Notes: generated by a model from the letters alone, not told the origin. A stretch of 64,000 nucleotides of DNA from Thermoanaerobaculia bacterium (GCA_035546295.1 DATKBT010000076.1:804-64803); one strand, 5' to 3'. Counted from the stretch's first letter, positions 4,844 to 35,417 are shown. Numbers and translations: made by a program.

Positions 4844-6093
4844 CGGTGGCCGTCGACCCGGACTCCGCCGCGGCCGGCCTGCTCTCGGGGCTTCGCGTGA
4901 TCGACGCGGCGACCATGGTCATGGTCCCCTCGGCGGCCTTGGTAATGGCCGACTACGGCGCCGAGGTCATCAAGGTCGAGGCGCTCTCCGGCGACGCCAA
5001 CCGCTTCGGGCACCTGATCCCGGGGATGCCCGATCATCAGCGCGACTACTGCTTCTTCCAGGACAACCGGAACAAGAAGAGCCTGGCGATCGACCTCAAG
5101 CACCCCGACGGTCTCGCCCTGTTCTATCGGCTGGTCGAGACCGCGGACGTGTTCTTCACCAACCTCCGCGCTCGCGCCCTCGACGCGTTGCGAATCGACT
5201 ACGCCAGCCTGCGCGAGAGGAACGGGCGCCTGATCTACGCGCACGGGACCGGCTACGGCGACGCCGGCCCGGAGGCGTGCAAGCCGGGCTACGATGCCGT
5301 CTGCTACTGGTCGCGCTCGGGGCTCGAGCACAGCATGTTTCCGCTCGACGGCTGGCTCGGTCCGATCCCTTACGGCTCGGGCGACCACCCCAGCGGCATG
5401 TCGCTGTTCGCGGCGGTGATGATGGCGCTCTACCGCCGCGAGCGAACCGGCGAGGGCTCGCGCGTGAGCACCTCGCTGATCGCCAACGGCGCCTGGAGCA
5501 ACGCGACCGTGATCCAGGCCCGGCTGCTCGACGCCACCTTCCACGAGCGGCGCCCGCGCGAGCGTCCGCTCAACTTCGCCGCGGTCTACTACGTTGCGGG
5601 CTGCGGGCGGAAGTTCAAGTTCACGATCATCGAGCACCAGAAGAAGTGGCCGGCGCTGTGTCGCTGCATCGGCCGCGAAGACCTGATCGACCACCCGCGC
5701 TACGCGACCGTCGAGGCGCGGGCGCGGGTCACCGGCGAGCTGGTGTCGCTGTTCGACCGCCAGTTCGCTGAGCGTCCGCTCGACGACTGGAAGGGGCGCT
5801 TCGAAGAGAGCGACGTACCGTTCTCGATCCTCTCCGACTACGACGACGTCGCAAGCGACGAGCAGATGCGCGCCAACGGGGTCTTCGTCGAGATCGAGGA
5901 CGAGTTGCTCGGCCGCGTGCGGTCGGTCAACAGCCCGCTCGTGCTCGAGCACGATCCGCCGGTCCGGCCGCGGCGCGCCCCCCACGTCGGCGAGCACACG
6001 CGCGAGATCCTCGCCGCCCTCGGCGAGCCCGAGGAGAGCATCGAGGACCTGATCCGGCGCGGCGTGGTGGGCGGCGGACCGACCCGTCCCTGA
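4840..6093 (+). CDS. CoA-transferase family III (CaiB/BaiF-like)
   Basis: N-terminus LSGLRVIDAATMVMVPSAALVMADYGAEVIKVE is typical of family III CoA transferases; GTG at 4840 overlaps the amidohydrolase TGA (GTGA), suggesting translational coupling. Confidence 0.8.
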   Translation: MTVAVDPDSAAAGLLSGLRVIDAATMVMVPSAALVMADYGAEVIKVEALSGDANRFGHLIPGMPDHQRDYCFFQDNRNKKSLAIDLKHPDGLALFYRLVETADVFFTNLRARALDALRIDYASLRERNGRLIYAHGTGYGDAGPEACKPGYDAVCYWSRSGLEHSMFPLDGWLGPIPYGSGDHPSGMSLFAAVMMALYRRERTGEGSRVSTSLIANGAWSNATVIQARLLDATFHERRPRERPLNFAAVYYVAGCGRKFKFTIIEHQKKWPALCRCIGREDLIDHPRYATVEARARVTGELVSLFDRQFAERPLDDWKGRFEESDVPFSILSDYDDVASDEQMRANGVFVEIEDELLGRVRSVNSPLVLEHDPPVRPRRAPHVGEHTREILAALGEPEESIEDLIRRGVVGGGPTRP

Positions 6094-6108
6094 GGACGAT
6101 CCGTCGCG

Positions 6109-7056
6109 TCACCCCAGCTCCCGCAGATCCTTCTCGGCCCGTTCCAGCACTGCGCGGGCCTGCGCCTCGGCGAAGCGGGCACGCTCGATCGCGCTCTTCA
6201 CGCGCACGAGCTCCTTCTCCACCTCGCCCAGCTTCGAGCGCTCCCGCTCCAGCCTCTCCTCGGCGAGGCGGACGGTGCGCGAGAGGCGTTCCGCCTGGCG
6301 CCGGAGGCCTCCCTCCTCGCGCCCGGCGCGCGCTCGTCGCGACGACGCCTCCTGGACCCCCTCGCGCGCCTGCTCGACGGCACGGCGGGCGGCCGCGCGC
6401 TGCGCGGCCGTGGCCTCGGGATCGCGCTTCGGCTTCGCCGAGCCCTGCGTCGCGCTCGCTCTCTCGGCGGCCGGGGCTTCGGAGGACTTCTTCGCTCGCG
6501 CCGGCGGCTTCCCGCTCGTGGCCGGCTCCGAAGGCACTCGCCGCGGACCGCCGCTCGGCAGGACACCCATCAGGACCTCGAAGCCCGGCGGCTCGACGTC
6601 GCCCTCGAGCCGGCCGGGCGGAGGGTCCGGGGAATGTGCGGAGCCCCAGGCGGCGAGCGCGTCGAGGGTCGAGCGGATGCGCCGGGCGACCGCCTCGGAG
6701 GCGGCGCTCCCCTGCCCCGCCACCTGCTCGAGGGCGAGCTCGAGCAGTCTCGACACCGCCGCCTTCCGCTCTGCGGTCGCCTCTCGCAGCGAGCTCGCGT
6801 CGCCGGTCCGCTGCGCCTCGCGCACAGCGTCGCCAGCCGCGAGCAGCTCCGCGAACGCCTCCTCGTGCTCGAGCGCGAGCCGGTTGACGGCCCAAGCCGA
6901 GATCGCGGGCTTGGTCAGCTTGCGGATCACGCCCGCCGCCTCGGCCTCGCCCTGCGCCTTCAGGGCCTTCGCCAGCTCGTTGCGCCGGGCGACGAACTCG
7001 GCGACGGGCGCGCTGTAGAGGGCGTCGAGGTCGTTTTCGCTGGGCGCCTTGGACAT
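6109..7056 (-). CDS. hypothetical protein with Lys/Glu/Ala-rich coiled-coil C-terminus
   Basis: 315 aa with balanced composition (MSKAPSENDLDALYSAPVAEFVARRNELAKALKAQGEAEAAGVIRKLTKPAISAWAVNRLA), unlike the Arg/Gly-rich overlapping frames; no family recognised. Confidence 0.5.
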   Translation of the reverse strand: MSKAPSENDLDALYSAPVAEFVARRNELAKALKAQGEAEAAGVIRKLTKPAISAWAVNRLALEHEEAFAELLAAGDAVREAQRTGDASSLREATAERKAAVSRLLELALEQVAGQGSAASEAVARRIRSTLDALAAWGSAHSPDPPPGRLEGDVEPPGFEVLMGVLPSGGPRRVPSEPATSGKPPARAKKSSEAPAAERASATQGSAKPKRDPEATAAQRAAARRAVEQAREGVQEASSRRARAGREEGGLRRQAERLSRTVRLAEERLERERSKLGEVEKELVRVKSAIERARFAEAQARAVLERAEKDLRELG

Positions 7057-7120
7057 GAGAGGGTCGTGCGGAACGCCGAGGCGCGCCCGGCAACGCTGCA
7101 GGCGGTCGCCCTAATCCGGA

Positions 7121-25743: not shown

Positions 25744-27336
25744 ATGACGTCCAGGGAGGACCTCGAGCGGGAGCTCGCCGAAACACGCGAGCACGTTCGG
25801 ACGCTGCGACGGGCCCTGGCCCGGCGGGGGGATCCGCCCGACACCGAGCTGCGGGGCGGGGTCTCGGTGGGACTCTCCGAGCGAGAGGCCCTGCTCGCCG
25901 ACGCCGAGCGCATCGCCCACCTCGGGAGCTGGGTCTGGAACGTCGGTCCCGACACCGTGTTCTGGTCCAACGAGCTGTTCAGGATCCTGGGCTACCACCC
26001 GGACCGCGACGAGGCTTCGAGCCAGGCGTTCTTCGCTCGCGTGCACCCCGATGACCTCGAGCGAGTCACCGAGACCGCGCAGCGCGGGGTCGAAACGGGC
26101 ATCGCCGAACGGATCCACTACCGCGTCCTGCACCCCGACGGCAGCATCCGACACGTGCAGATGGACGGCGCCATGATCTTCGACCACGACGGCTCGTTGC
26201 GCCGGGCCGTCGGCACCGTCCTCGACGTCACCGAGCAGGTGCGCCTGCAACAGCGTCTCGCCAGCGCCGAGAAGCTGGAGGCGATCGGACGGCTCGCCGG
26301 CGGCGTTGCGCACGATCTCAACAACCTGATGATGGTGGTGTCGGCGATCAGCTCTCAGCTCGAGCGCGAGGCTCCCGCCGCGGCCGGCGAGCTCCAGCAC
26401 GCAGTCGAGGCGGCGAGCCTCCTCACCCAGCGGCTGCTCTCGGTGAGCGGGCGCGCTCAGCTCGAGCCGCAGCCGATGGCCTGCAACGACCTGGTCGCCG
26501 AAGCGCTCGAGAAGATGGTCGTCCTGCTCGGCGATCGGGTGGCGCTGGTGGATGACCTGCAGGCGGAATCGGCCGAGCTCGAGGTCGACTCCCATCAGAT
26601 GGAGCTGGCGTTGCTGAACCTCCTGATCAACGCGCGAGACGCGGTGACGGACGGCGGCACCATCGTCGTGCGGACGCGGCTCCTGGACCAAGACGAGGTC
26701 GAGATCGGCATCGAAGACGACGGCGCGGGAATGAGCGCCGACGTCGAGGCTCGGGCGTTCGAACCGTTCTTCACCACCAAAGGAGAGGGGCGCGGAACCG
26801 GACTCGGGCTGGCCCTGGCGCGCGGCACCGTCGAGCGGCACGGCGGCGCGATCACCCTCGACACGCGACCGGGGTGCGGGACCCGGATCACGATCCGGTT
26901 GCCTTGCCGGCGGTTGGCGAAGTGCGAGGGTGCGAAGTCTGTTCGGGAACAGGAGTCCGCCGCGCGGCTGCGGGTCCTGATCGTGGACGACGAGCCGTTG
27001 GTCCGCGGCGCGCTCCGCCGGCTGCTCGAGGCCGAAGGGCATTCGGTCGAGGAGGCCTCCTGCCCATCGGAGTGCCTGGCGCTCGCCGCGCACCACTCGC
27101 GGTCTCTCGACCTCCTGGTCTGCGACCTGGTGATGCCCGAGATGCTCGGACCGGCTCTGGTCGCCGAGCTCCGCGAGCGGCGCACCTGCCCCGGCCGCGT
27201 CCTCTTCGTCACCGGCTACGGCTCGTCCGCCGAGTCGATGCTGCAGCCGGGCGACGTCGTCCTGGCCAAGCCGTTCCGGCCTCAGGACCTGCGCTCCGCG
27301 ATCGTGGAGACGACGGCGGCGGCGCGGGAGCGATAG
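25744..27336 (+). CDS. cytoplasmic hybrid sensor histidine kinase (PAS - HisKA - HATPase_c - receiver)
   Basis: 530 aa; H-box LAGGVAHDLNNLMMV; N/G boxes LNLLINARDA ... GTGLGLA; receiver LRVLIVDDEPLVRG ... CDLVMPEM; no TM segment. Confidence 0.8.
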   Translation: MTSREDLERELAETREHVRTLRRALARRGDPPDTELRGGVSVGLSEREALLADAERIAHLGSWVWNVGPDTVFWSNELFRILGYHPDRDEASSQAFFARVHPDDLERVTETAQRGVETGIAERIHYRVLHPDGSIRHVQMDGAMIFDHDGSLRRAVGTVLDVTEQVRLQQRLASAEKLEAIGRLAGGVAHDLNNLMMVVSAISSQLEREAPAAAGELQHAVEAASLLTQRLLSVSGRAQLEPQPMACNDLVAEALEKMVVLLGDRVALVDDLQAESAELEVDSHQMELALLNLLINARDAVTDGGTIVVRTRLLDQDEVEIGIEDDGAGMSADVEARAFEPFFTTKGEGRGTGLGLALARGTVERHGGAITLDTRPGCGTRITIRLPCRRLAKCEGAKSVREQESAARLRVLIVDDEPLVRGALRRLLEAEGHSVEEASCPSECLALAAHHSRSLDLLVCDLVMPEMLGPALVAELRERRTCPGRVLFVTGYGSSAESMLQPGDVVLAKPFRPQDLRSAIVETTAAARER

Positions 27337-29075: not shown

Positions 29076-29878
29076 TGACGATGCCGGGAGCCACTCGATC
29101 CGACGTTGAGCGAGGCGTCAGGACGCCCGCCTTCGTCGTCGGCATCCTGGTTCCTCTGGCCGCGGCCGCCGCGCTCGCCGGGCAGCCGGACGCCCCCCGC
29201 CGCTCGACCGGCGCCGTTCCGGCGCTCACCCCGGAGGTCCAGACCGCCGAGTGGGCCCAGAGCTGGTGGATGCGACGGCACGAGCAGAAGCTGGCGGATC
29301 TCGCGGCCAGGGCGGAGGTCGAGCTCGTGATGATCGGCGACTCGATCGTCCACGGCTGGGAGGAGGCCGGGCAAGACGTCTGGGAGCAGTACTACGGCGA
29401 CCGCAAGGCCTTCAATCTCGGCTTCGCCGGGGACCGTACCGAGCAGGTCCTCTGGCGGCTCGCGAATGGCGCCGTCGGCGGCATCCAGCCGAAGCTGATC
29501 GTCCTCATGATCGGCACCAACAACACGGGGCATCGCCAGGATCCTCCGGCACAAACGGCAGCCGGGATCCGCTCGATCCTCGACGACCTGCAACGACGCC
29601 TGCCGTCGGCCCGGATCCTGCTGCTCGCGATCTTCCCGCGAGAGGCGAACGCCAGCCAGGAGCTGCGCAGGCTCAACGACGAGGTGAACCGGGAGATCGC
29701 GCGCTACGAGGACGGCGAGAGGATCTTCTTCCTGGACCTGAACGACGCCTTCCTGGACGCCGACGGCACGCTCTCGGAGGAGATCATGCCCGACCTGCTG
29801 CACCCCAACGAACGGGGTTATCGGCTCTGGGCGGAGGCAATGGAGCCGACGATCCAGCGTCTGCTCGGCGAACGCTAG
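29075..29878 (+). CDS. SGNH/GDSL hydrolase family protein (secreted)
   Basis: 267 aa; signal peptide; block I VMIGDSIVHGW (GDS), block III LMIGTNN, block V LHPNERGY (DxxH-like); translationally coupled to the upstream membrane protein. Confidence 0.75.
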   Translation: MTMPGATRSDVERGVRTPAFVVGILVPLAAAAALAGQPDAPRRSTGAVPALTPEVQTAEWAQSWWMRRHEQKLADLAARAEVELVMIGDSIVHGWEEAGQDVWEQYYGDRKAFNLGFAGDRTEQVLWRLANGAVGGIQPKLIVLMIGTNNTGHRQDPPAQTAAGIRSILDDLQRRLPSARILLLAIFPREANASQELRRLNDEVNREIARYEDGERIFFLDLNDAFLDADGTLSEEIMPDLLHPNERGYRLWAEAMEPTIQRLLGER

Positions 29879-29944
29879 GCTTCCACGGAATCGGGTGCGG
29901 CTGGTCCAGGTGGTCGCGAACCTCCGCGGCGCGCCGGAGCGGCT

Positions 29945-31042
29945 TCAGTACCGCAGGAGCGCTGCCACGTTGCCGGCCCGCACCAGCCCCTCGATCGGGT
30001 CGACGAAGTCGACCGAAGCGCCCGTGAGCTGTGCCTGCTCGACCAGCTTCTCGACCAGGTCGAGCCGGAACAGGCTGTCGCCGTTCGTCTCGCAGTAGCG
30101 GCAGGCGTCCAGCTCGCCGGGCATCACGTTGTCGCACTCGCGGCAGTGGACGCCCGGCAGCGTGACGTCGCGGATCACGGCGATCGTCTCGACCCTGCCG
30201 TCCTGCAGCGCGGACCAGACCTCCTCGCCGCCGATCGCGGCCAGATCGTGCGCCAAGGCGTCGCCACAGATGCGCGTCCAGAGGTCGGCCTCCTCCTGCC
30301 GCTCCCGCTCGAAGAAGAGGCGGAACGCCTCCTCCATCAGCTGCTCCTCACCCTCCTTCACGCTCACCTGCTCCTCGCCCACCACCTTCTCGGCGACGCT
30401 CGAGGGCAGTTGCTCCCGGATCTCCCGCAGCGCTTCGGCCGAGCCGAGGAGTACCACGCGCGAGAACTCGACCTCCTTCTCGAGCCTGGCGAGCGCCTCC
30501 CCCACCTCCTTGGCGTAGTGGAGCAGCTCGTTGTCGCGACGGCGCTGATAGCGCTTCTGCGACCAGCCGCCGACCTTGACCCGGTTCTTCACGTCGGCGC
30601 GCACCGAGTCCTCTTCGCGCGGGGTGCCGTCGGCGACCAGGAAGACGCGCGCCCCGCTGTTGTCGGCGGCCACGACCACGAAGGTCTCGTATTCTTCCTG
30701 GAGCTCCGCGAGCGGGCGAATGTAGGGGCAGTCCCCCACCCGCACCAGATCGGGCGGCGACACGTCCAGGGGATACCCCTCGAAGAAGTCGAGGGCGTAC
30801 GAGGCGAACACCGCGAGCCCTTCGGAGTCGAAGGTGTGCGATTCCAGGGAGCGTTCGATGAGCGCGAGGCTCTGCTCGAAATTCTCGAGCTCCTCGGGCC
30901 GGTCGCGGAGGAAGTTGCGCACGCGCTCGGCCCGATCGTCGATCTTGCACATCGACTCGGGGCTCGAGAGGTAGAGGCTGACGAAGGCGCGTTCGGGGCA
31001 CTGGCGCTCGGCGAGCTTGCGCAGATCGATCTTCTGGAGCAA
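29945..31042 (-). CDS. bacterial eRF1/Pelota-like protein (baeRF family) with C-terminal zinc ribbon
   Basis: 365 aa; N-terminal LLQKIDLRKLAERQCPERAFVSLYL, central eRF1-domain-like region, C-terminal CRECDNVMPGELDACRYCE (CxxC ... CxxC); proposed TTG start at 31042 with AGGAG 5 nt upstream; the further upstream ORF extension is Arg-rich noise. Confidence 0.65.
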   Translation of the reverse strand: MLQKIDLRKLAERQCPERAFVSLYLSSPESMCKIDDRAERVRNFLRDRPEELENFEQSLALIERSLESHTFDSEGLAVFASYALDFFEGYPLDVSPPDLVRVGDCPYIRPLAELQEEYETFVVVAADNSGARVFLVADGTPREEDSVRADVKNRVKVGGWSQKRYQRRRDNELLHYAKEVGEALARLEKEVEFSRVVLLGSAEALREIREQLPSSVAEKVVGEEQVSVKEGEEQLMEEAFRLFFERERQEEADLWTRICGDALAHDLAAIGGEEVWSALQDGRVETIAVIRDVTLPGVHCRECDNVMPGELDACRYCETNGDSLFRLDLVEKLVEQAQLTGASVDFVDPIEGLVRAGNVAALLRY

Positions 31043-31282
31043 GGGAACTCCTGGTTCGGGCGAACGTGGTCGGGAGATCGAGACGGAGCCGGCAGCGCGG
31101 CCACACCGGCGACCGACGAGGAAGCAAGCCGCACGCCAACCCGCCGTGCGCGGCGGCTTCCGCGCGCCGTCCGTGGAGCCGGCGGGGTCGGGCAACCCGC
31201 CCGCGGCCTCCGACTCGCGCCTCGCCCGCGGCGCTCGTTGGAGAGTGGTGACCACCACGAGCCCGCTACGTCTCGAAGGCTC

Positions 31283-32134
31283 TCAGAACTGCATCATCTC
31301 GCTGGCCGCGATCTTCCATCGCTTGCGGCTCACCCGCTCTGCGACCATTTCGGTGGTCGCAGCATCCTCGCCTTCGCCGAAGCGGACGACGAGGGTGGCG
31401 CGGTCCTTGCCGTCCGCGCGCACTTCGGTGACGGCGGCAGTGCGCGGCATCTGGGCGATGGCCCAGTCGACGAAGAGGCCAAGCGCCTTCTGGTCGCCAG
31501 CCATCTCGGTTTTCCAGGATGTCAGGAGCTCGCCGTTCATCGAGTCCTCGAGCGCCTGCCAGTCGCAGCCGGCGAGCGCCTCGTAGAAGGTGCGAAACGC
31601 GTCGAGCGGTCCTCCCGGCTCGCCCGACACCGTGACCGGGCCGAGGTCCGTGCAGGGGTCGAACCTCTGGGCGTCGACCTGGAGATCGAAGGAGACGGTG
31701 TGACCCTCGATCTCGGTAGCAACCATCGAGATCCGCCCGACGGCTCGACTCTCGTCCAGGGTCTCCATCTCCACCACCATCGCCTCGGGCTCGAGCTCAC
31801 CCCCGAAATTGGGCGGATAGTGGGAGTGCAGGAGGCGGCTGATCCACTCCCTGGCCGCCTTGCCGGTCTTCGGGTCGAGCGCCAGGAAGAGCCCGGCGCC
31901 CTCCTCCTGAAAGAGCGCGTAGACGGTCTCCGCGTCGGCCGGCGCGGTGGCCACCGTCAGCCACATCTCGCGCACGCCTTCCTCGTAGTGGGCGTGCGAC
32001 AGCGCGAGCTCCTCGCCGTCGATGGTCACCGTGCCGGAGACGGTGCTCGGACCCGCCGCGACGGCGCTCGCAGACAACCAGGCCATCGCGACGACGGTGA
32101 CCGCAGGACCCGCGGGGCGTCGGGGGAATCTCAT
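31283..32134 (-). CDS. secreted hypothetical protein
   Basis: 283 aa; signal peptide MRFPRRPAGPAVTVVAMAWLSASAVAAGP; AAGGAGAG RBS before ATG 32134; acidic, Thr/Glu-rich mature region. Confidence 0.55.
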   Translation of the reverse strand: MRFPRRPAGPAVTVVAMAWLSASAVAAGPSTVSGTVTIDGEELALSHAHYEEGVREMWLTVATAPADAETVYALFQEEGAGLFLALDPKTGKAAREWISRLLHSHYPPNFGGELEPEAMVVEMETLDESRAVGRISMVATEIEGHTVSFDLQVDAQRFDPCTDLGPVTVSGEPGGPLDAFRTFYEALAGCDWQALEDSMNGELLTSWKTEMAGDQKALGLFVDWAIAQMPRTAAVTEVRADGKDRATLVVRFGEGEDAATTEMVAERVSRKRWKIAASEMMQF

Positions 32135-32231
32135 GTCGCTCTCCTTGCCGAGGCCGATGACTGCGGCTCTCGGATCGTTCGTGTCTCTCGGAGGAGCCCA
32201 ACGTGTCGCGGGAGGTTCTGCGCACACCCTA

Positions 32232-32267
32232 CATTGCCTCGGACATTGCCTCGGACATTGCCTCGGC
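32232..32267. repeat. tandem direct repeat, 12-bp unit CATTGCCTCGGA x3
   Basis: cattgcctcgga cattgcctcgga cattgcctcggc read directly; in the divergent intergenic region between the secreted protein (start 32134) and PadR (start 32395). Confidence 0.7.
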
Positions 32268-32394
32268 GACGACCGTTCCACGGGGTCGCCACCTCCGCAC
32301 ACGCGCTGCAACCCGGCCCCGGCGGCGCCGTATACTGTTGTTCCTAGGTATAGAATCAACGGCGTCGAGCACGACGCGTGGACAGGGAGACAGG

Positions 32395-32781
32395 ATGGAG
32401 ATCTTCGAGGAGGGCGAGAGCGAGACGCCGAGCTCGTCCCGCCGCACACAGGTCGACTCGCTGCAGGGCACTCTCGGCGCGATGGTCCTCAAGTCCCTGT
32501 CGCGCGGCCCGCTCCACGGCTACGCCATCGCACGGTGGATCGAGGGGATCGCGGGGGACCAGCTCCTGGTCGAGGAGGGTTCGCTCTACCCCACGCTGCG
32601 CCGGCTCGAGCAGCGGGCCTGGGTGACCTCGCGCTGGGCGGTGTCCGAGACCGGCCGCAAGGTGAAGCTCTACCGGCTGACGACCGACGGCGCGCGTCAG
32701 CTCGACGCCGAGGTGACGCGCTGGCGCAGCTTCGCGGCGGCAGTGAGCCGCGTGCTCGAGGAACCGGGAGGTGCCACGTGA
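32395..32781 (+). CDS. PadR family transcriptional regulator
   Basis: 128 aa; winged-helix signature LKSLSRGPLHGYAIARWIE ... EGSLYPTLRRLEQRAWV; GGGAGACAGG RBS. Confidence 0.85.
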   Translation: MEIFEEGESETPSSSRRTQVDSLQGTLGAMVLKSLSRGPLHGYAIARWIEGIAGDQLLVEEGSLYPTLRRLEQRAWVTSRWAVSETGRKVKLYRLTTDGARQLDAEVTRWRSFAAAVSRVLEEPGGAT

Positions 32782-35417
32782 AGCACGACGAGGAGCGCCC
32801 CACGTACGAGGAGCGTGGCGACGCCGACGCGGAGCTGGAGTTCCACCTCGCGATGAGCGAACGCCGGCTGCGTGAAGAGGGCCTCGACCCGGCCGCCGCC
32901 GCCCGCGAGGCGCGTCGCCGGTTCGGCGATCGGGACCGGGTGCTGTCCGAGTGCCGCCGGCTGGACCGCCGGCTGGCGCGCAGCGAGCGCCGCAACGACG
33001 CCCTGACGGATCTCCGAGGCGACGTCCGTTGCGCGCTGCGCTCGCTGCATGCGAGCCCCGGCTTCACCGTGACCGTCGTCGTCACCCTGGCGCTCGCCAT
33101 CGGCGCCACCACTGCGCTGTTCTCGCTGGTGCGCGGTGTCCTGCTGCAACCGCTCGACTACCGGGAGCCGGGCTCGATCGCGCTGCTGTCGAGCACCTAT
33201 CCCGAGCGCGGCTGGAGCGGGATGCCGCTGCCCCAGGGCCTGTTCCAGGAGCTGCGCGAAGGCGGCGAGGCGATCGAAGAGCTCGCCGTCTACCGATCCC
33301 AACGCGCCACGTTGCTGTCCTCGCTCGAGCCGCGGCGACTGCGCACTGCGGCGGTCTCGCAGAACCTGCTGCGTGTTCTCGGCGTCGAGCCCGCCCTCGG
33401 CCGCGGGTTCCAACCCGACGACTCGTCGAGCGACGGCGGACCGTGCCTGATCAGCCACCGCCTCTGGCGCAGCGAGCTGGGCGGCGATCCCGGGGTGCTC
33501 GGGCGCACCCTCCGGCTCGAAGGAGACGTCGGCCCCTGCCAGGTGATCGGCGTGCTGCCCTCGGGTTTCGCGTTCCCCGAGGCGGAGACGGATCTCTGGC
33601 GGCTCTACCGTCTCGACCCCGGAGAGGATCTCTGGAGCTCGTGGTTCCTCACCGGGGTGGCCCGCATCGCCCCCGGCGCCGATCTGGCGGGCGCACGCGA
33701 GGCCGCCCAGGCCGAGCTCGACCGGCTGACCGAGGGCTGGCGCGACCGTCTCCCCTTCGGCGGCGGCTGGAGTTTCGTGCTGACGCCGATCACCGAGACG
33801 GTGGTCGGCGAGGTCGCGCCGGCGCTGTGGGTGCTGTTCGGGGCGGTCGCGATGGTCCTGCTGATCGCATGCATCGACCTCGGCGGCCTGCTGCTGGCCC
33901 GCACCATCCAGCGCGCAGACGACCTGGCGGTGCGCTCGGCGCTGGGCGCCAGCCGCTGGCGCCTCGCCCGCCAGCTCCTCGTCGAGATCCTGGCGGTCTG
34001 CGGCCTCGGGGGCGCGGCCGGCCTGGTCCTCGCCCACCTCGCCGTGCGCACCTTCCGGGCGCGGCCGCCGGTCGACCTGCCCCGCCTCGAGGAGGTGAGG
34101 ACGGACCCCTGGGTTCTCGGGTTCGCGCTCTCGGTCACGATCCTCTGCGCCCTGCTCGCCTGGATCGCTCCGCTGATCCAGACGCTGCGCGGCCGGATGC
34201 GCTGGAGCTCACGCAGCGGCGTGGCCGGCTCACGCACTCGCTCCCGCCTGCGCGCCTCGTTGGTGGTCGTCGAGGCGGCGCTGACGGTGGCGCTGCTGGT
34301 GGGCACCGGCCTCCTCACGCGCAGCTTCCTCGCCCTCGCCGCCGTCGACCCGGGTTTCGACGTGGGCGGTCGCACCGCGGTCCGGCTCGAGCTGCCGCCG
34401 GCGCGCTACGACGGCGAGGACGCGCAGCGCGACTTCTATGCGCAACTGCTCGAGCGGGTCGCGGCGCTGCCGCCGGTCGCGGCCGCCGGCCTCACCACCG
34501 GGCTGCCGCTGCGAGGCGTGGCCATCATCGACCGTCTCGCGATCGAGGAAGAGGGGGCAGGAGGCGACGACGAGCACCGCCCCGAAGTGGCGATCGACGC
34601 GGTCTCGCCCGGCTACTTCGAGACGATCGGCGTGCCGCTGCTGGAGGGGCGGATGTTCGACGCGCAGGATCGCTCCGGTGGGTCCCGCGTGGCGATCGTC
34701 AACGACGAGATCGCACGCCGGCACTTTCAGGGCGCCTCACCGATCGGCCGGCGGCTGCTCGGCGCCGACGACGAGACGCCGCTCACCATCGTCGGCGTCG
34801 TCGGCTCCGTCAAGCAGTACGGGCTGCGCAAGGAGACGCCGCTCGAGTACTTCGTGCCGTTCGCGCAGCAGCCGCAGGCGAGCGCCCACCTGGTGGTGCG
34901 CAGCGAGCTCGACGCCGAGGCGCTCTCCGCGGGTCTGAAGAGCGTGATCGCCGACCTCGATCCGGCGCTGCCGGTACCCGAGGTCATCGCGCTCGAGCGC
35001 GCGCTCTCGGACTCCGTCGGCCGCGAGCGCTTCTATGCTCTCGCCATGGGTGCCTTCGCCACCCTCGCGGCCGTGCTGGCGACCCTGGGGCTGTACGGCC
35101 TGATCGCGTTCGCGGTCGAGCAGCGACGACGCGAGCTCGGGATCCGCCTGGCGCTGGGCGCGCGCCGCTCGAAACTGTTCCGTTCCGTGGTCGCCGGCGG
35201 CATGGCGCTGGGCGCCGCCGGCGTCGTTCTCGGGCTGGCCGCCGCCCTGCTGCTGGCACGCTCGCTCGGCGGGCTGTTGTTCGGAGTCGGAGCCGCCGAC
35301 CCGGTCGCGATCGCGGCAGCAGCCCTCCTCGTCCTGGTGATCGCGGGGGCTGCTTCGAGCCTGCCGGCGCGGCGGGCGATCCGAGTGGATCCCGCGCGCG
35401 CCTTACGCGGGGACTAA
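32778..35417 (+). CDS. MacB/FtsX-like duplicated permease (ADOP-type), coupled to PadR
   Basis: 879 aa; GTG at 32778 overlaps the PadR TGA (GTGA); N-terminal cytoplasmic helix-rich segment, then TM (FTVTVVVTLALAIGATTALFSLV), two FtsX-like modules. Confidence 0.8.
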   Translation: MKHDEERPTYEERGDADAELEFHLAMSERRLREEGLDPAAAAREARRRFGDRDRVLSECRRLDRRLARSERRNDALTDLRGDVRCALRSLHASPGFTVTVVVTLALAIGATTALFSLVRGVLLQPLDYREPGSIALLSSTYPERGWSGMPLPQGLFQELREGGEAIEELAVYRSQRATLLSSLEPRRLRTAAVSQNLLRVLGVEPALGRGFQPDDSSSDGGPCLISHRLWRSELGGDPGVLGRTLRLEGDVGPCQVIGVLPSGFAFPEAETDLWRLYRLDPGEDLWSSWFLTGVARIAPGADLAGAREAAQAELDRLTEGWRDRLPFGGGWSFVLTPITETVVGEVAPALWVLFGAVAMVLLIACIDLGGLLLARTIQRADDLAVRSALGASRWRLARQLLVEILAVCGLGGAAGLVLAHLAVRTFRARPPVDLPRLEEVRTDPWVLGFALSVTILCALLAWIAPLIQTLRGRMRWSSRSGVAGSRTRSRLRASLVVVEAALTVALLVGTGLLTRSFLALAAVDPGFDVGGRTAVRLELPPARYDGEDAQRDFYAQLLERVAALPPVAAAGLTTGLPLRGVAIIDRLAIEEEGAGGDDEHRPEVAIDAVSPGYFETIGVPLLEGRMFDAQDRSGGSRVAIVNDEIARRHFQGASPIGRRLLGADDETPLTIVGVVGSVKQYGLRKETPLEYFVPFAQQPQASAHLVVRSELDAEALSAGLKSVIADLDPALPVPEVIALERALSDSVGRERFYALAMGAFATLAAVLATLGLYGLIAFAVEQRRRELGIRLALGARRSKLFRSVVAGGMALGAAGVVLGLAAALLLARSLGGLLFGVGAADPVAIAAAALLVLVIAGAASSLPARRAIRVDPARALRGD

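What the first reader, a model, noticed from the sequence alone, without database searches (positions are those of the whole stretch)
29945..31042. eRF1/Pelota-like (baeRF) protein with a C-terminal zinc ribbon and a probable TTG start
The product has the N-terminal LxKIDLRKLAE ... AFVSLYL pattern and overall length of the bacterial eRF1/Dom34-like proteins predicted to act on stalled ribosomes, and ends in a C4 zinc ribbon (CRECDNV ... CRYCE). It is convergent with the membrane-protein / SGNH-hydrolase operon, and a secreted protein follows it on the same strand. The only in-frame start with a Shine-Dalgarno (AGGAG-N5) is TTG at 31042; the annotated-style ATG far upstream would add about 70 Arg-rich residues. 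baeRF proteins remain experimentally uncharacterised.
Basis: partly seen in the sequence, partly recalled or inferred. Interest (0 to 1): 0.6.

Follow-up and report, generated by a model that had tools for sequence, protein, structure and literature searches.

The report
Bacterial eRF1-like factor, family 10
This is a real gene for a bacterial relative of the archaeal/eukaryotic release factor eRF1 that keeps a catalytic-type loop and a zinc ribbon, but it belongs to a family already described in 2019 and already annotated in public databases, whose activity has never been tested.

Summary
The gene is real: 29945..31042, minus strand, 365 aa. The TTG start at 31042 is correct. Codon composition switches to a coding pattern exactly there. 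AGGAG lies 5 nt upstream. 61 orthologs start at or near the same position. In the two closest orthologs CAGGAG is invariant, the start is GTG or TTG, and the upstream region has frame-breaking indels.

The product is a typical member of Pfam PF18854 (baeRF-1 family 10). It has a three-domain aeRF1 fold; its nearest solved structures are the Balon hibernation factors and archaeal aRF1.

The zinc ribbon (C300, C303, C314, C317) is not a C-terminal tail. It is the ancestral aeRF1 insert within the C-terminal domain.

The GGQ position carries an invariant GGWSQ. This GGxSQ form is the Vms1/VLRF-1 type. It is among the most conserved features across 110 diverse relatives. The N-domain hairpin tip, where eRF1 carries NIKS, is variable.

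Most likely role: codon-independent cleavage of peptidyl-tRNA on stalled ribosomes. A Balon-like non-catalytic role is the main rival.

No gene neighbour is conserved across phyla. An identical protein is already in NCBI, and family 10 was flagged as potentially catalytic in 2019. The finding is correct but already known.

The parts
29945..31042 (-). Coding sequence of the baeRF-1 family 10 protein (365 aa plus stop codon at 29945-29947)
   Evidence: ORF. GC3 0.93 and GC2 0.39. Pfam PF18854 at 92 bits. Identical 365-aa protein P0001 in NCBI.
31040..31042 (-). TTG start codon
   Evidence: Sequence. Codon-position composition switches here. A start codon lies at or near the equivalent position in 61 orthologs. 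The closest orthologs use GTG and TTG at this position.
31048..31052 (-). Shine-Dalgarno AGGAG, 5 nt before the start codon
   Evidence: Sequence. CAGGAG is invariant in the three closest loci, while the spacer varies (5, 7 and 7 nt).
31043..31282 (-). Non-coding leader and intergenic region. The in-frame GTG at 31258 is not the start.
   Evidence: GC1/GC2/GC3 of about 0.75/0.75/0.78, so no coding signature. Indels that are not multiples of three and loss of identity in the ortholog alignment. No sigma-70 consensus promoter found.
30728..31042 (-). N-terminal domain (residues 1-105), short and similar to Balon's. Its helical hairpin (helices 28-44 and 49-67) has a variable tip.
   Evidence: Secondary structure of the AF2 model. 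Sequence aligns with the Rv2629 Balon N-domain from residue 14. Mean column identity 0.36, and 0.27 at the tip.
30308..30727 (-). Middle domain (residues 106-245, eRF1 domain 2 type), matched by PF18854
   Evidence: Pfam match over residues 106-239. Ungapped alignment with the eRF1 M domain around the loop.
30557..30571 (-). GGWSQ loop (G158 to Q162) at the position of eRF1's GGQ, followed by the basic helix KRYQRRR
   Evidence: Invariant in 27 of 27 and 61 of 61 orthologs. G158, G159, S161, Q162, R164 and R167 are among the most conserved positions in 110 diverse representatives. Aligns with GGQS-ALRFARLR of eRF1.
29948..30307 (-). C-terminal domain (residues 246-365, eRF1 domain 3 / Pelota type), ending in GNVAALLRY
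   Evidence: Weak Pfam eRF1_3 match. The family profile aligns to the C domains of aRF1 4af1 and Balon through to the last residue. pLDDT 84-92.
30092..30145 (-). C4 zinc ribbon inserted in the C-terminal domain (C300-R-E-C303 ... C314-R-Y-C317)
   Evidence: All four Cys invariant. Present in 59 of 61 orthologs. 93-98% conserved in 110 representatives. The second CxxC aligns with CSDCG of the archaeal aRF1 zinc ribbon, while Balon has a Cys-free segment at this site.

Best explanation
The gene encodes a stand-alone, three-domain bacterial aeRF1-type factor of baeRF-1 family 10, in a Thermoanaerobaculia (Acidobacteriota) genome.

Shown: it has the aeRF1 fold. It keeps a strictly conserved GGxSQ loop (GGWSQ) and the basic helix that in eRF1 and Vms1 reaches the peptidyl-transferase centre. 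It keeps the ancestral Cys4 zinc ribbon of the C-terminal domain. Its N-terminal domain is short, aligns with that of Balon, and has no conserved codon-reading motif.

Inferred: the protein enters the A site of stalled or obstructed ribosomes without reading a stop codon. It uses Gln162 to release the nascent chain from peptidyl-tRNA, either by ester hydrolysis as eRF1 does or by cutting the tRNA 3' end as reported for ANKZF1. The C-terminal domain, with the zinc ribbon at the site where Balon's hairpin contacts EF-Tu, would mediate the interaction with a translational GTPase.

Identity is near-certain. The catalytic mechanism is an inference at roughly even odds.
For: Identity: PF18854 at 92 bits against a cutoff of 27. 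Foldseek matches Balon at TM 0.71 and E = 6e-22, aRF1 4af1 at 2e-20 and eRF1 at 1e-19. The family profile against PDB gives Balon 9e-16, aRF1 1e-12 and eRF1 4e-11.

Catalytic loop: GGWSQKRYxRRR is invariant in 27 of 27 and 61 of 61 orthologs. Across 110 representatives from 50%-identity clusters, the most conserved positions are G158, G159, S161, Q162, R164 and R167, together with G200, the four Cys and the C-terminal LR motif. The loop aligns without gaps to eRF1's GGQS-ALRFARLR. [quoted passage not shown] Yeast Vms1 has GGSQ (a 'GxxQ' motif), and both the residues and their spacing are essential for release activity (PMC5989216).

Codon independence: the N-domain is the least conserved part (0.36), its hairpin tip scores 0.27, and there is no NIKS-like motif. 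Only Balon's N-domain aligns with it by sequence.

Not a hibernation operon: no HPF/RaiA gene and no other conserved neighbour in 81 loci.
Against: No member of family 10 has been tested experimentally. The closest characterised relatives by sequence and fold (Balon, Rv2629, MSMEG_1130) are non-catalytic A-site blockers. In register with eRF1, the Gln lies two residues after the canonical position (GG-W-S-Q), so whether it can reach the ester bond in a 70S ribosome is unproven. The loop has low model confidence (pLDDT 57-66). The lack of conserved gene context gives no independent functional clue.
Confidence: 0.55

Rival explanations
1. It is a Balon-type ribosome hibernation factor. It occupies the A site of idle or paused ribosomes under stress, does not cleave peptidyl-tRNA, and the conserved GGxSQ loop and basic helix serve only to bind 23S rRNA.
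For: The best matches in PDB by both sequence and fold are Balon proteins. The best NCBIfam hits are the three ribosome-hibernation-factor models. The N-domain aligns with Rv2629. The Balon study counted bacterial aeRF1 homologues broadly as Balon homologues.
Against: All three NCBIfam hibernation-factor scores are far below their cutoffs: 93 vs 320, 66 vs 480 and 45 vs 330. Balon is defined partly by lacking GGQ, and baeRF-1 families without the Gln show unconstrained loops; here the loop is one of the most constrained parts of the protein. A Cys4 ribbon replaces Balon's EF-Tu-binding hairpin. No RaiA/HPF or stress-gene neighbour was found in the loci with Pfam-annotated gene calls, and no neighbour of any kind is conserved across the 81 loci.
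Confidence: 0.3
2. It works as a tRNA 3'-end (CCA) endonuclease on peptidyl-tRNA held in split 50S subunits. That would make it a bacterial analogue of Vms1/ANKZF1 in ribosome-associated quality control, rather than an ester hydrolase on 70S ribosomes.
For: The loop is of the VLRF-1 type (GGxSQ), not a strict GGQ. PGAP names the identical protein a Vms1/Ankzf1 family peptidyl-tRNA hydrolase. Pfam acVLRF1 scores 58 bits. That ANKZF1 is a nuclease is from my own knowledge of the literature and was not checked here.
Against: The protein keeps full aeRF1-type N and C domains, which VLRF-1 proteins have lost or replaced, and these suggest binding to a 70S A site. The NCBIfam acVLRF1 model scores 37 against a cutoff of 125. 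No RqcH/NEMF-like gene lies nearby in the loci with Pfam-annotated gene calls, and no neighbour is conserved across the 81 loci.
Confidence: 0.15
3. It is a stop-codon-specific class I release factor of archaeal type that supplements RF1/RF2, for example for one stop codon or under particular conditions.
For: It keeps the complete three-domain aeRF1 architecture, including the zinc ribbon. Burroughs and Aravind note that full-length baeRF-1 versions could in principle recognise stop codons.
Against: The N-domain is about 105 residues, against about 140 in aeRF1, and does not align with the aRF1/eRF1 N-domain by sequence. There is no NIKS-like motif, and the hairpin tip is the most variable segment. 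TIGR03676 aRF1_eRF1 scores 58 against a cutoff of 235. baeRF-1 proteins have never displaced RF1/RF2.
Confidence: 0.05

Closest known systems
baeRF-1 family 10 (Pfam PF18854; Burroughs and Aravind 2019, PMC6514570)
   Same: Best Pfam match, well above the cutoff. Three-domain aeRF1 architecture. Conserved catalytic-loop Gln. Bacterial, with a patchy distribution across phyla. The identical protein is already in NCBI.
   Different: Nothing of substance; this is a typical member. The study here adds that the Cys4 ribbon and GGxSQ are nearly universal in the family, and that the gene has no conserved neighbour.
Balon ribosome hibernation factors (P. urativorans Balon, Rv2629, MSMEG_1130; PDB 8rd8, 8v9k, 8v9j)
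   Same: Closest solved structures (TM about 0.7). Similar length. The N-domain is related by sequence. The C-terminal GxxAxLR[YW] motif is shared. Both are bacterial members of the aeRF1 superfamily.
   Different: Balon lacks a GGQ-type Gln and has a lasso loop and a bL27 trap. It has a Cys-free beta-hairpin where this protein has a Cys4 ribbon. It is often encoded next to raiA or stress genes. This protein falls far below the NCBIfam hibernation-factor cutoffs.
Archaeal/eukaryotic class I release factor aRF1/eRF1
   Same: Same fold and domain order. The catalytic loop has the same length and the same GG position. The R-[FY]-x-R-x-R helix is retained. A zinc ribbon is inserted at the same site in the C-terminal domain.
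   Different: The Gln is displaced by two residues (GGWSQ against GGQ). The N-domain is shorter, with no NIKS, YxCxxxF or GTS motifs. The host is a bacterium.
Vms1/ANKZF1 and the VLRF-1 clade
   Same: A GxxQ/GGxSQ-type catalytic loop with conserved basic residues. Action predicted to be independent of stop codons.
   Different: VLRF-1 proteins lack the aeRF1-type C-terminal domain and carry other modules (treble clef, ankyrin repeats, VIM). acVLRF-1 has lost the N-domain. This protein keeps both flanking aeRF1 domains.

Membership tests
baeRF-1 family 10 (PF18854) | Score above the Pfam gathering threshold, and the best-scoring family among the aeRF1-related models | tested here: met
   92.1 bits against 27.1. 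The next best are baeRF_family2 at 65 and acVLRF1 at 58.
baeRF-1 family 10 (PF18854) | Well-conserved Gln in the catalytic loop (PMC6514570) | tested here: met
   GGWSQ is invariant in 27 of 27 and 61 of 61 orthologs. Q162 is 88% and S161 93% conserved in 110 diverse representatives.
baeRF-1 family 10 (PF18854) | Standard three-domain aeRF1 architecture | tested here: met
   The AF2 model (pLDDT 82) aligns over its full length to Balon, aRF1 and eRF1.
Balon / ribosome hibernation factor (NCBIfam NF052289, NF052288, NF052287) | Score above the curated equivalog cutoff | tested here: not met
   93 vs 320, 66 vs 480 and 45 vs 330.
Balon / ribosome hibernation factor | No GGQ-type catalytic motif; lasso loop in its place | tested here: not met
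   An invariant GGWSQ is present. Balon sequences aligned at this site read ERAGQMREQ and VTAGWNGYGDFQ.
Balon / ribosome hibernation factor | Cys-free beta-hairpin insert in the C-terminal domain that contacts EF-Tu(GDP) | tested here: not met
   A Cys4 ribbon occupies the site. MSMEG_1130 has no Cys there.
Balon / ribosome hibernation factor | Binds the A site of hibernating ribosomes | not testable with these tools
   Needs ribosome binding assays or cryo-EM.
Classical aeRF1 class I release factor | Strict GGQ motif | tested here: not met
   GGWSQ: W occupies the canonical Q position and the Gln lies two residues later.
Classical aeRF1 class I release factor | Stop-codon recognition motifs in the N-domain (NIKS and others) | tested here: not met
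   No such motif. The hairpin tip (residues 44-50) has mean identity 0.27. The N-domain does not align with aRF1/eRF1 by sequence.
Classical aeRF1 class I release factor | Zinc ribbon inserted in the Pelota-type C-terminal domain | tested here: met
   CxxC-x10-CxxC at residues 300-317. The second knuckle aligns with CSDCG of aRF1 4af1. Metal binding itself was not tested.
Classical aeRF1 class I release factor | TIGR03676 equivalog cutoff | tested here: not met
   57.6 against 234.7.
Vms1/ANKZF1 (VLRF-1 clade) | GxxQ / GGxSQ catalytic loop | tested here: met
   GGWSQ.
Vms1/ANKZF1 (VLRF-1 clade) | VLRF-1 domain architecture (N-domain lost or replaced; no aeRF1 C-domain) and the NCBIfam acVLRF1 cutoff | tested here: not met
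   Both aeRF1-type flanking domains are present. NF041024 scores 37 against 125.
Vms1/ANKZF1 (VLRF-1 clade) | Peptidyl-tRNA hydrolase or CCA-nuclease activity | not testable with these tools
   Needs biochemical assays.

The most novel reading that the evidence does not exclude
Family 10 proteins are catalytically active aeRF1-type factors working on bacterial ribosomes. That would be an archaeal-style system for releasing nascent chains, independent of stop codons, that runs alongside RF1/RF2, ArfB and Pth. It may be escorted by EF-Tu through a C-terminal domain that still carries the intact zinc ribbon. If so, the family would be the functional intermediate between true release factors and the non-catalytic Balon hibernation factors.
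Probability: 0.4. Interest if true: 0.6.

Novelty: already known. Interest (0 to 1): 0.3.

Why it matters
The bacterial relatives of eRF1 that have been studied (Balon) turned out to be non-catalytic hibernation factors. Family 10 is the branch that still looks catalytic, and nobody has tested it. If it is active, bacteria would have an archaeal/eukaryotic-type peptidyl-tRNA release activity. The family would also show how a release factor was converted into a hibernation factor.

This locus adds no new biology beyond a clean example with a verified non-ATG start. However, the ortholog survey found cultured hosts in which the question could be tested: Aeoliella sp. SH292, Rubrivirga litoralis F394 and Candidatus Laterigemmans baculatus JC640.

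Tried and rejected
1. Long GTG-31258 start (437 aa): rejected. The extension has no coding composition, orthologs start at the TTG position, and the closest loci show frame-breaking indels upstream.

2. Downstream ATG-30952 start: rejected, because it would remove the conserved N-terminus IDLRxLA...PERAFxSLY.

3. Conserved operon partner: searched six homolog contigs with Pfam-annotated gene calls and clustered all ORFs within 4 kb in 81 loci. This found only lineage-local synteny, at most 16 of 81 loci and all of them Acidobacteriota. The window's own neighbours are not shared.

4. Defence-system link: PADLOC gave no hits for the gene or four neighbours.

5. RNA elements and tRNAs: no Rfam hit and no tRNA in the 64-kb window.

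6. Promoter and terminator consensus scan of 29700-31500: nothing found, which is uninformative at 71% GC.

7. Placing Balon's HP motif in the sequence to compare decoding-centre contacts: failed.

8. Experimental work on Gln-retaining bacterial aeRF1 proteins: none found in the paper library.

Full report
**Observation.** The minus strand carries an ORF open from 31258 to 29945. In-frame start candidates are GTG 31258, GTG 31255, TTG 31195, TTG 31042 and ATG 30952. TTG 31042 is preceded by AGGAG (31052-31048) and a 5-nt spacer.

**Start codon.** Three independent lines support the TTG.

- Composition: from 31042 onward GC1/GC2/GC3 is 0.73/0.39/0.93, typical of coding sequence in this 71% GC window. 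The 216-nt extension upstream reads 0.75/0.75/0.78.
- Orthologs: in 80 loci from species-representative genomes, 61 have a start codon at or within a few codons of the equivalent position, most exactly there (52 ATG, 5 TTG, 4 GTG). 35 of them have a GGAG-type motif upstream. The modal protein length is 363 aa.
- Closest relatives: the loci of the two closest orthologs (90% and 82% identity) align almost perfectly after the start. CAGGAG is invariant and the start is GTG or TTG. Upstream they need indels that are not multiples of three, and identity falls away.

The NCBI record for the identical protein (P0001, 365 aa) uses the same start.

**Identity.** Pfam gives baeRF_family10 (PF18854) at 92 bits against a cutoff of 27. 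Weaker matches are baeRF_family2, acVLRF1, and sub-threshold eRF1_2 and eRF1_3. NCBIfam's best hits are the three Balon-type ribosome hibernation factor models and aRF1_eRF1, all far below their cutoffs: 93 vs 320, 66 vs 480, 45 vs 330 and 58 vs 235.

The nearest solved structures by sequence are Balon Rv2629 and MSMEG_1130, followed by eRF1 and aRF1. An AlphaFold2 model built on a 27-sequence alignment has mean pLDDT 82. Foldseek matches it over its full length to ribosome-bound Balon (TM 0.71, E = 6e-22), archaeal aRF1 4af1 (2e-20), accommodated eRF1 (1e-19) and, more weakly, Pelota/Dom34 (about 1e-10). The three-domain aeRF1 fold is therefore established.

**Catalytic-type loop.** Residues 158-169 read GGWSQKRYQRRR. 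In the ungapped HMM alignment to eRF1 (…GRGGQSALRFARLR…) the two Gly align with the GG of GGQ, W160 takes the place of the canonical Gln, and Q162 lies two residues later. R164, Y165, R167 and R169 match eRF1's R-F-x-R-x-R helix.

GGWSQ is invariant in 27 of 27 aligned homologs and 61 of 61 genomic orthologs. A profile search of 1.84 billion cluster representatives found 629 clusters at E <= 1e-30 and 4,812 at E <= 1e-3. In 110 full-length representatives scoring down to about 180 bits, all still best matched by PF18854 among those sampled, GGxSQ is present in about 90. The variable residue x is W in 69, and M, Q, C, F, S or L in the rest. G158, G159, S161, Q162, R164 and R167 are among the 26 most conserved positions of the whole protein.

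This matches the literature. Burroughs and Aravind (PMC6514570) report that most baeRF-1 families have lost the Gln and have unconstrained loops. [quoted passage not shown] Yeast Vms1 carries GGSQ ('GxxQ'); mutating G292 or Q295, or deleting S294, impairs or abolishes release activity (PMC5989216). Balon is described as lacking GGQ and keeping the peptidyl-transferase centre inert (PMC10901736).

**Zinc ribbon.** The four Cys (C300, C303, C314, C317) are invariant. They are present in 59 of 61 orthologs and 93-98% conserved in the 110 representatives. They sit in a well-predicted part of the C-terminal domain (pLDDT about 87-92). Another 48 residues follow, ending in GNVAALLRY, the C-terminal strand shared with aeRF1 and Balon.

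The family profile aligns the second CxxC with CSDCG in the C-domain insert of Halobacterium aRF1 (4af1). Balon MSMEG_1130 has a Cys-free segment at the same site. Burroughs and Aravind describe exactly this arrangement: a zinc ribbon inserted in the Pelota domain of classical aeRF-1, replaced in many baeRF-1 families by a two-strand insert that may be a degenerate ribbon. In Balon that insert is the hairpin that contacts EF-Tu(GDP). So the ribbon is an ancestral internal insert, not a C-terminal appendage.

**N-domain.** It is short, about 105 residues, with the order strand, two helices, three strands. By sequence it aligns with the N-domain of Rv2629 (ERAFVSLY against GPFASVYF) but not with that of aRF1 or eRF1. 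It is the least conserved domain (mean identity 0.36). The tip of its helical hairpin, where eRF1 carries NIKS, is the most variable stretch (0.27). Stop-codon reading is therefore unlikely.

**Context and distribution.** The host is a Thermoanaerobaculia bacterium (Acidobacteriota), according to the NCBI record of the identical protein. Relatives occur in 207 of about 185,000 species genomes. They are scattered over Acidobacteriota, Rhodothermales, Planctomycetota, Myxococcota, Desulfobacterota, Chloroflexota, Deinococcota, Vulcanimicrobiota, Elusimicrobiota, Ignavibacteria, Synergistia and Acidimicrobiia. This fits the horizontal spread described for baeRF-1.

No gene neighbour is conserved across phyla. 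The window's own neighbours are shared with none of the 80 other loci. These neighbours are the convergent YbjN-like, membrane-protein and GDSL hydrolase genes, and an upstream putative secreted protein with a weak DUF3558 match. PADLOC, Rfam, tRNA and promoter/terminator scans found nothing.

**Mechanism.** The constraint pattern is strongest on the loop that reaches the peptidyl-transferase centre, on the zinc ligands and on the C-terminal strand, and weakest on the decoding-side tip. This favours a codon-independent, catalytically active A-site factor that releases nascent chains from stalled ribosomes. The chemistry (ester hydrolysis or cleavage of the tRNA 3' end) and the substrate (70S or split 50S) remain open.

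The main rival is a Balon-like non-catalytic blocker. It is supported by overall similarity, and weakened by the failed equivalog cutoffs, the conserved Gln, the intact ribbon and the absence of hibernation or stress-gene neighbours. A role as a stop-codon-specific release factor is unlikely. None of this can be settled without experiments, and the library holds no experimental study of this family.

**Verdict.** The feature is a typical, already annotated member of a family described in 2019, so novelty is low. The residual interest lies in the untested prediction that this family is the catalytically active bacterial branch of the aeRF1 superfamily.

Noticed in passing
window 32231-32266: A perfect tandem repeat, ACATTGCCTCGG x3. 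It lies in the divergent intergenic region between the putative secreted-protein gene (31283-32125, minus strand) and a PadR-family regulator ORF, which is followed by a MacB_PCD/FtsX permease at 32781-35417. It could be an operator-like element.
   Followed up: no
L055, L056, L073, L074, L076, L085, L086 (e.g. L076:3208-5877 upstream of the family-10 gene at 6001-7092): In Rhodothermales and Rubricoccaceae the family-10 gene sits directly downstream of rpsA on the same strand. rpsA encodes ribosomal protein bS1, here with six S1 domains. The synteny is lineage-local, but it is the only translation-related neighbour found.
   Followed up: partly
P0129, P0192, P0224 (family-10 representatives): A few family members carry GGQSQ. 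That is a canonical GGQ followed by SQ, and could be an intermediate between GGQ and GGxSQ.
   Followed up: no
P0041, P0052, P0119; locus L029: One subclade has an N-terminal extension of about 40 residues (…DFxRI[NP]LQxLA) and, in L029, no start codon at the usual position. So the conserved start position does not hold for the whole family.
   Followed up: partly
P0133 (468 aa), P0134 (524 aa): Two representatives extend about 100-140 residues beyond the usual LRY C-terminus. These could be fusions or read-through gene calls.
   Followed up: no
L006:2428-3753 and L007:4530-6542: ABC-F-type proteins (ABC_tran, ABC_tran_Xtn, ABC_tran), a family that includes ribosome-associated factors, lie within 6 kb of the family-10 gene in a Kofleriaceae locus and a Caldilineaceae locus. 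This is probably coincidence.
   Followed up: no
window 25744-27336 (+): A hybrid sensor kinase with PAS, HATPase_c and receiver domains.
   Followed up: no
window 30146-32347 (+) and other long ORFs: The 71% GC content produces long spurious antisense ORFs. One example is a 733-aa ORF on the opposite strand that overlaps the family-10 gene. ORF length alone is not evidence of a gene in this window.
   Followed up: yes
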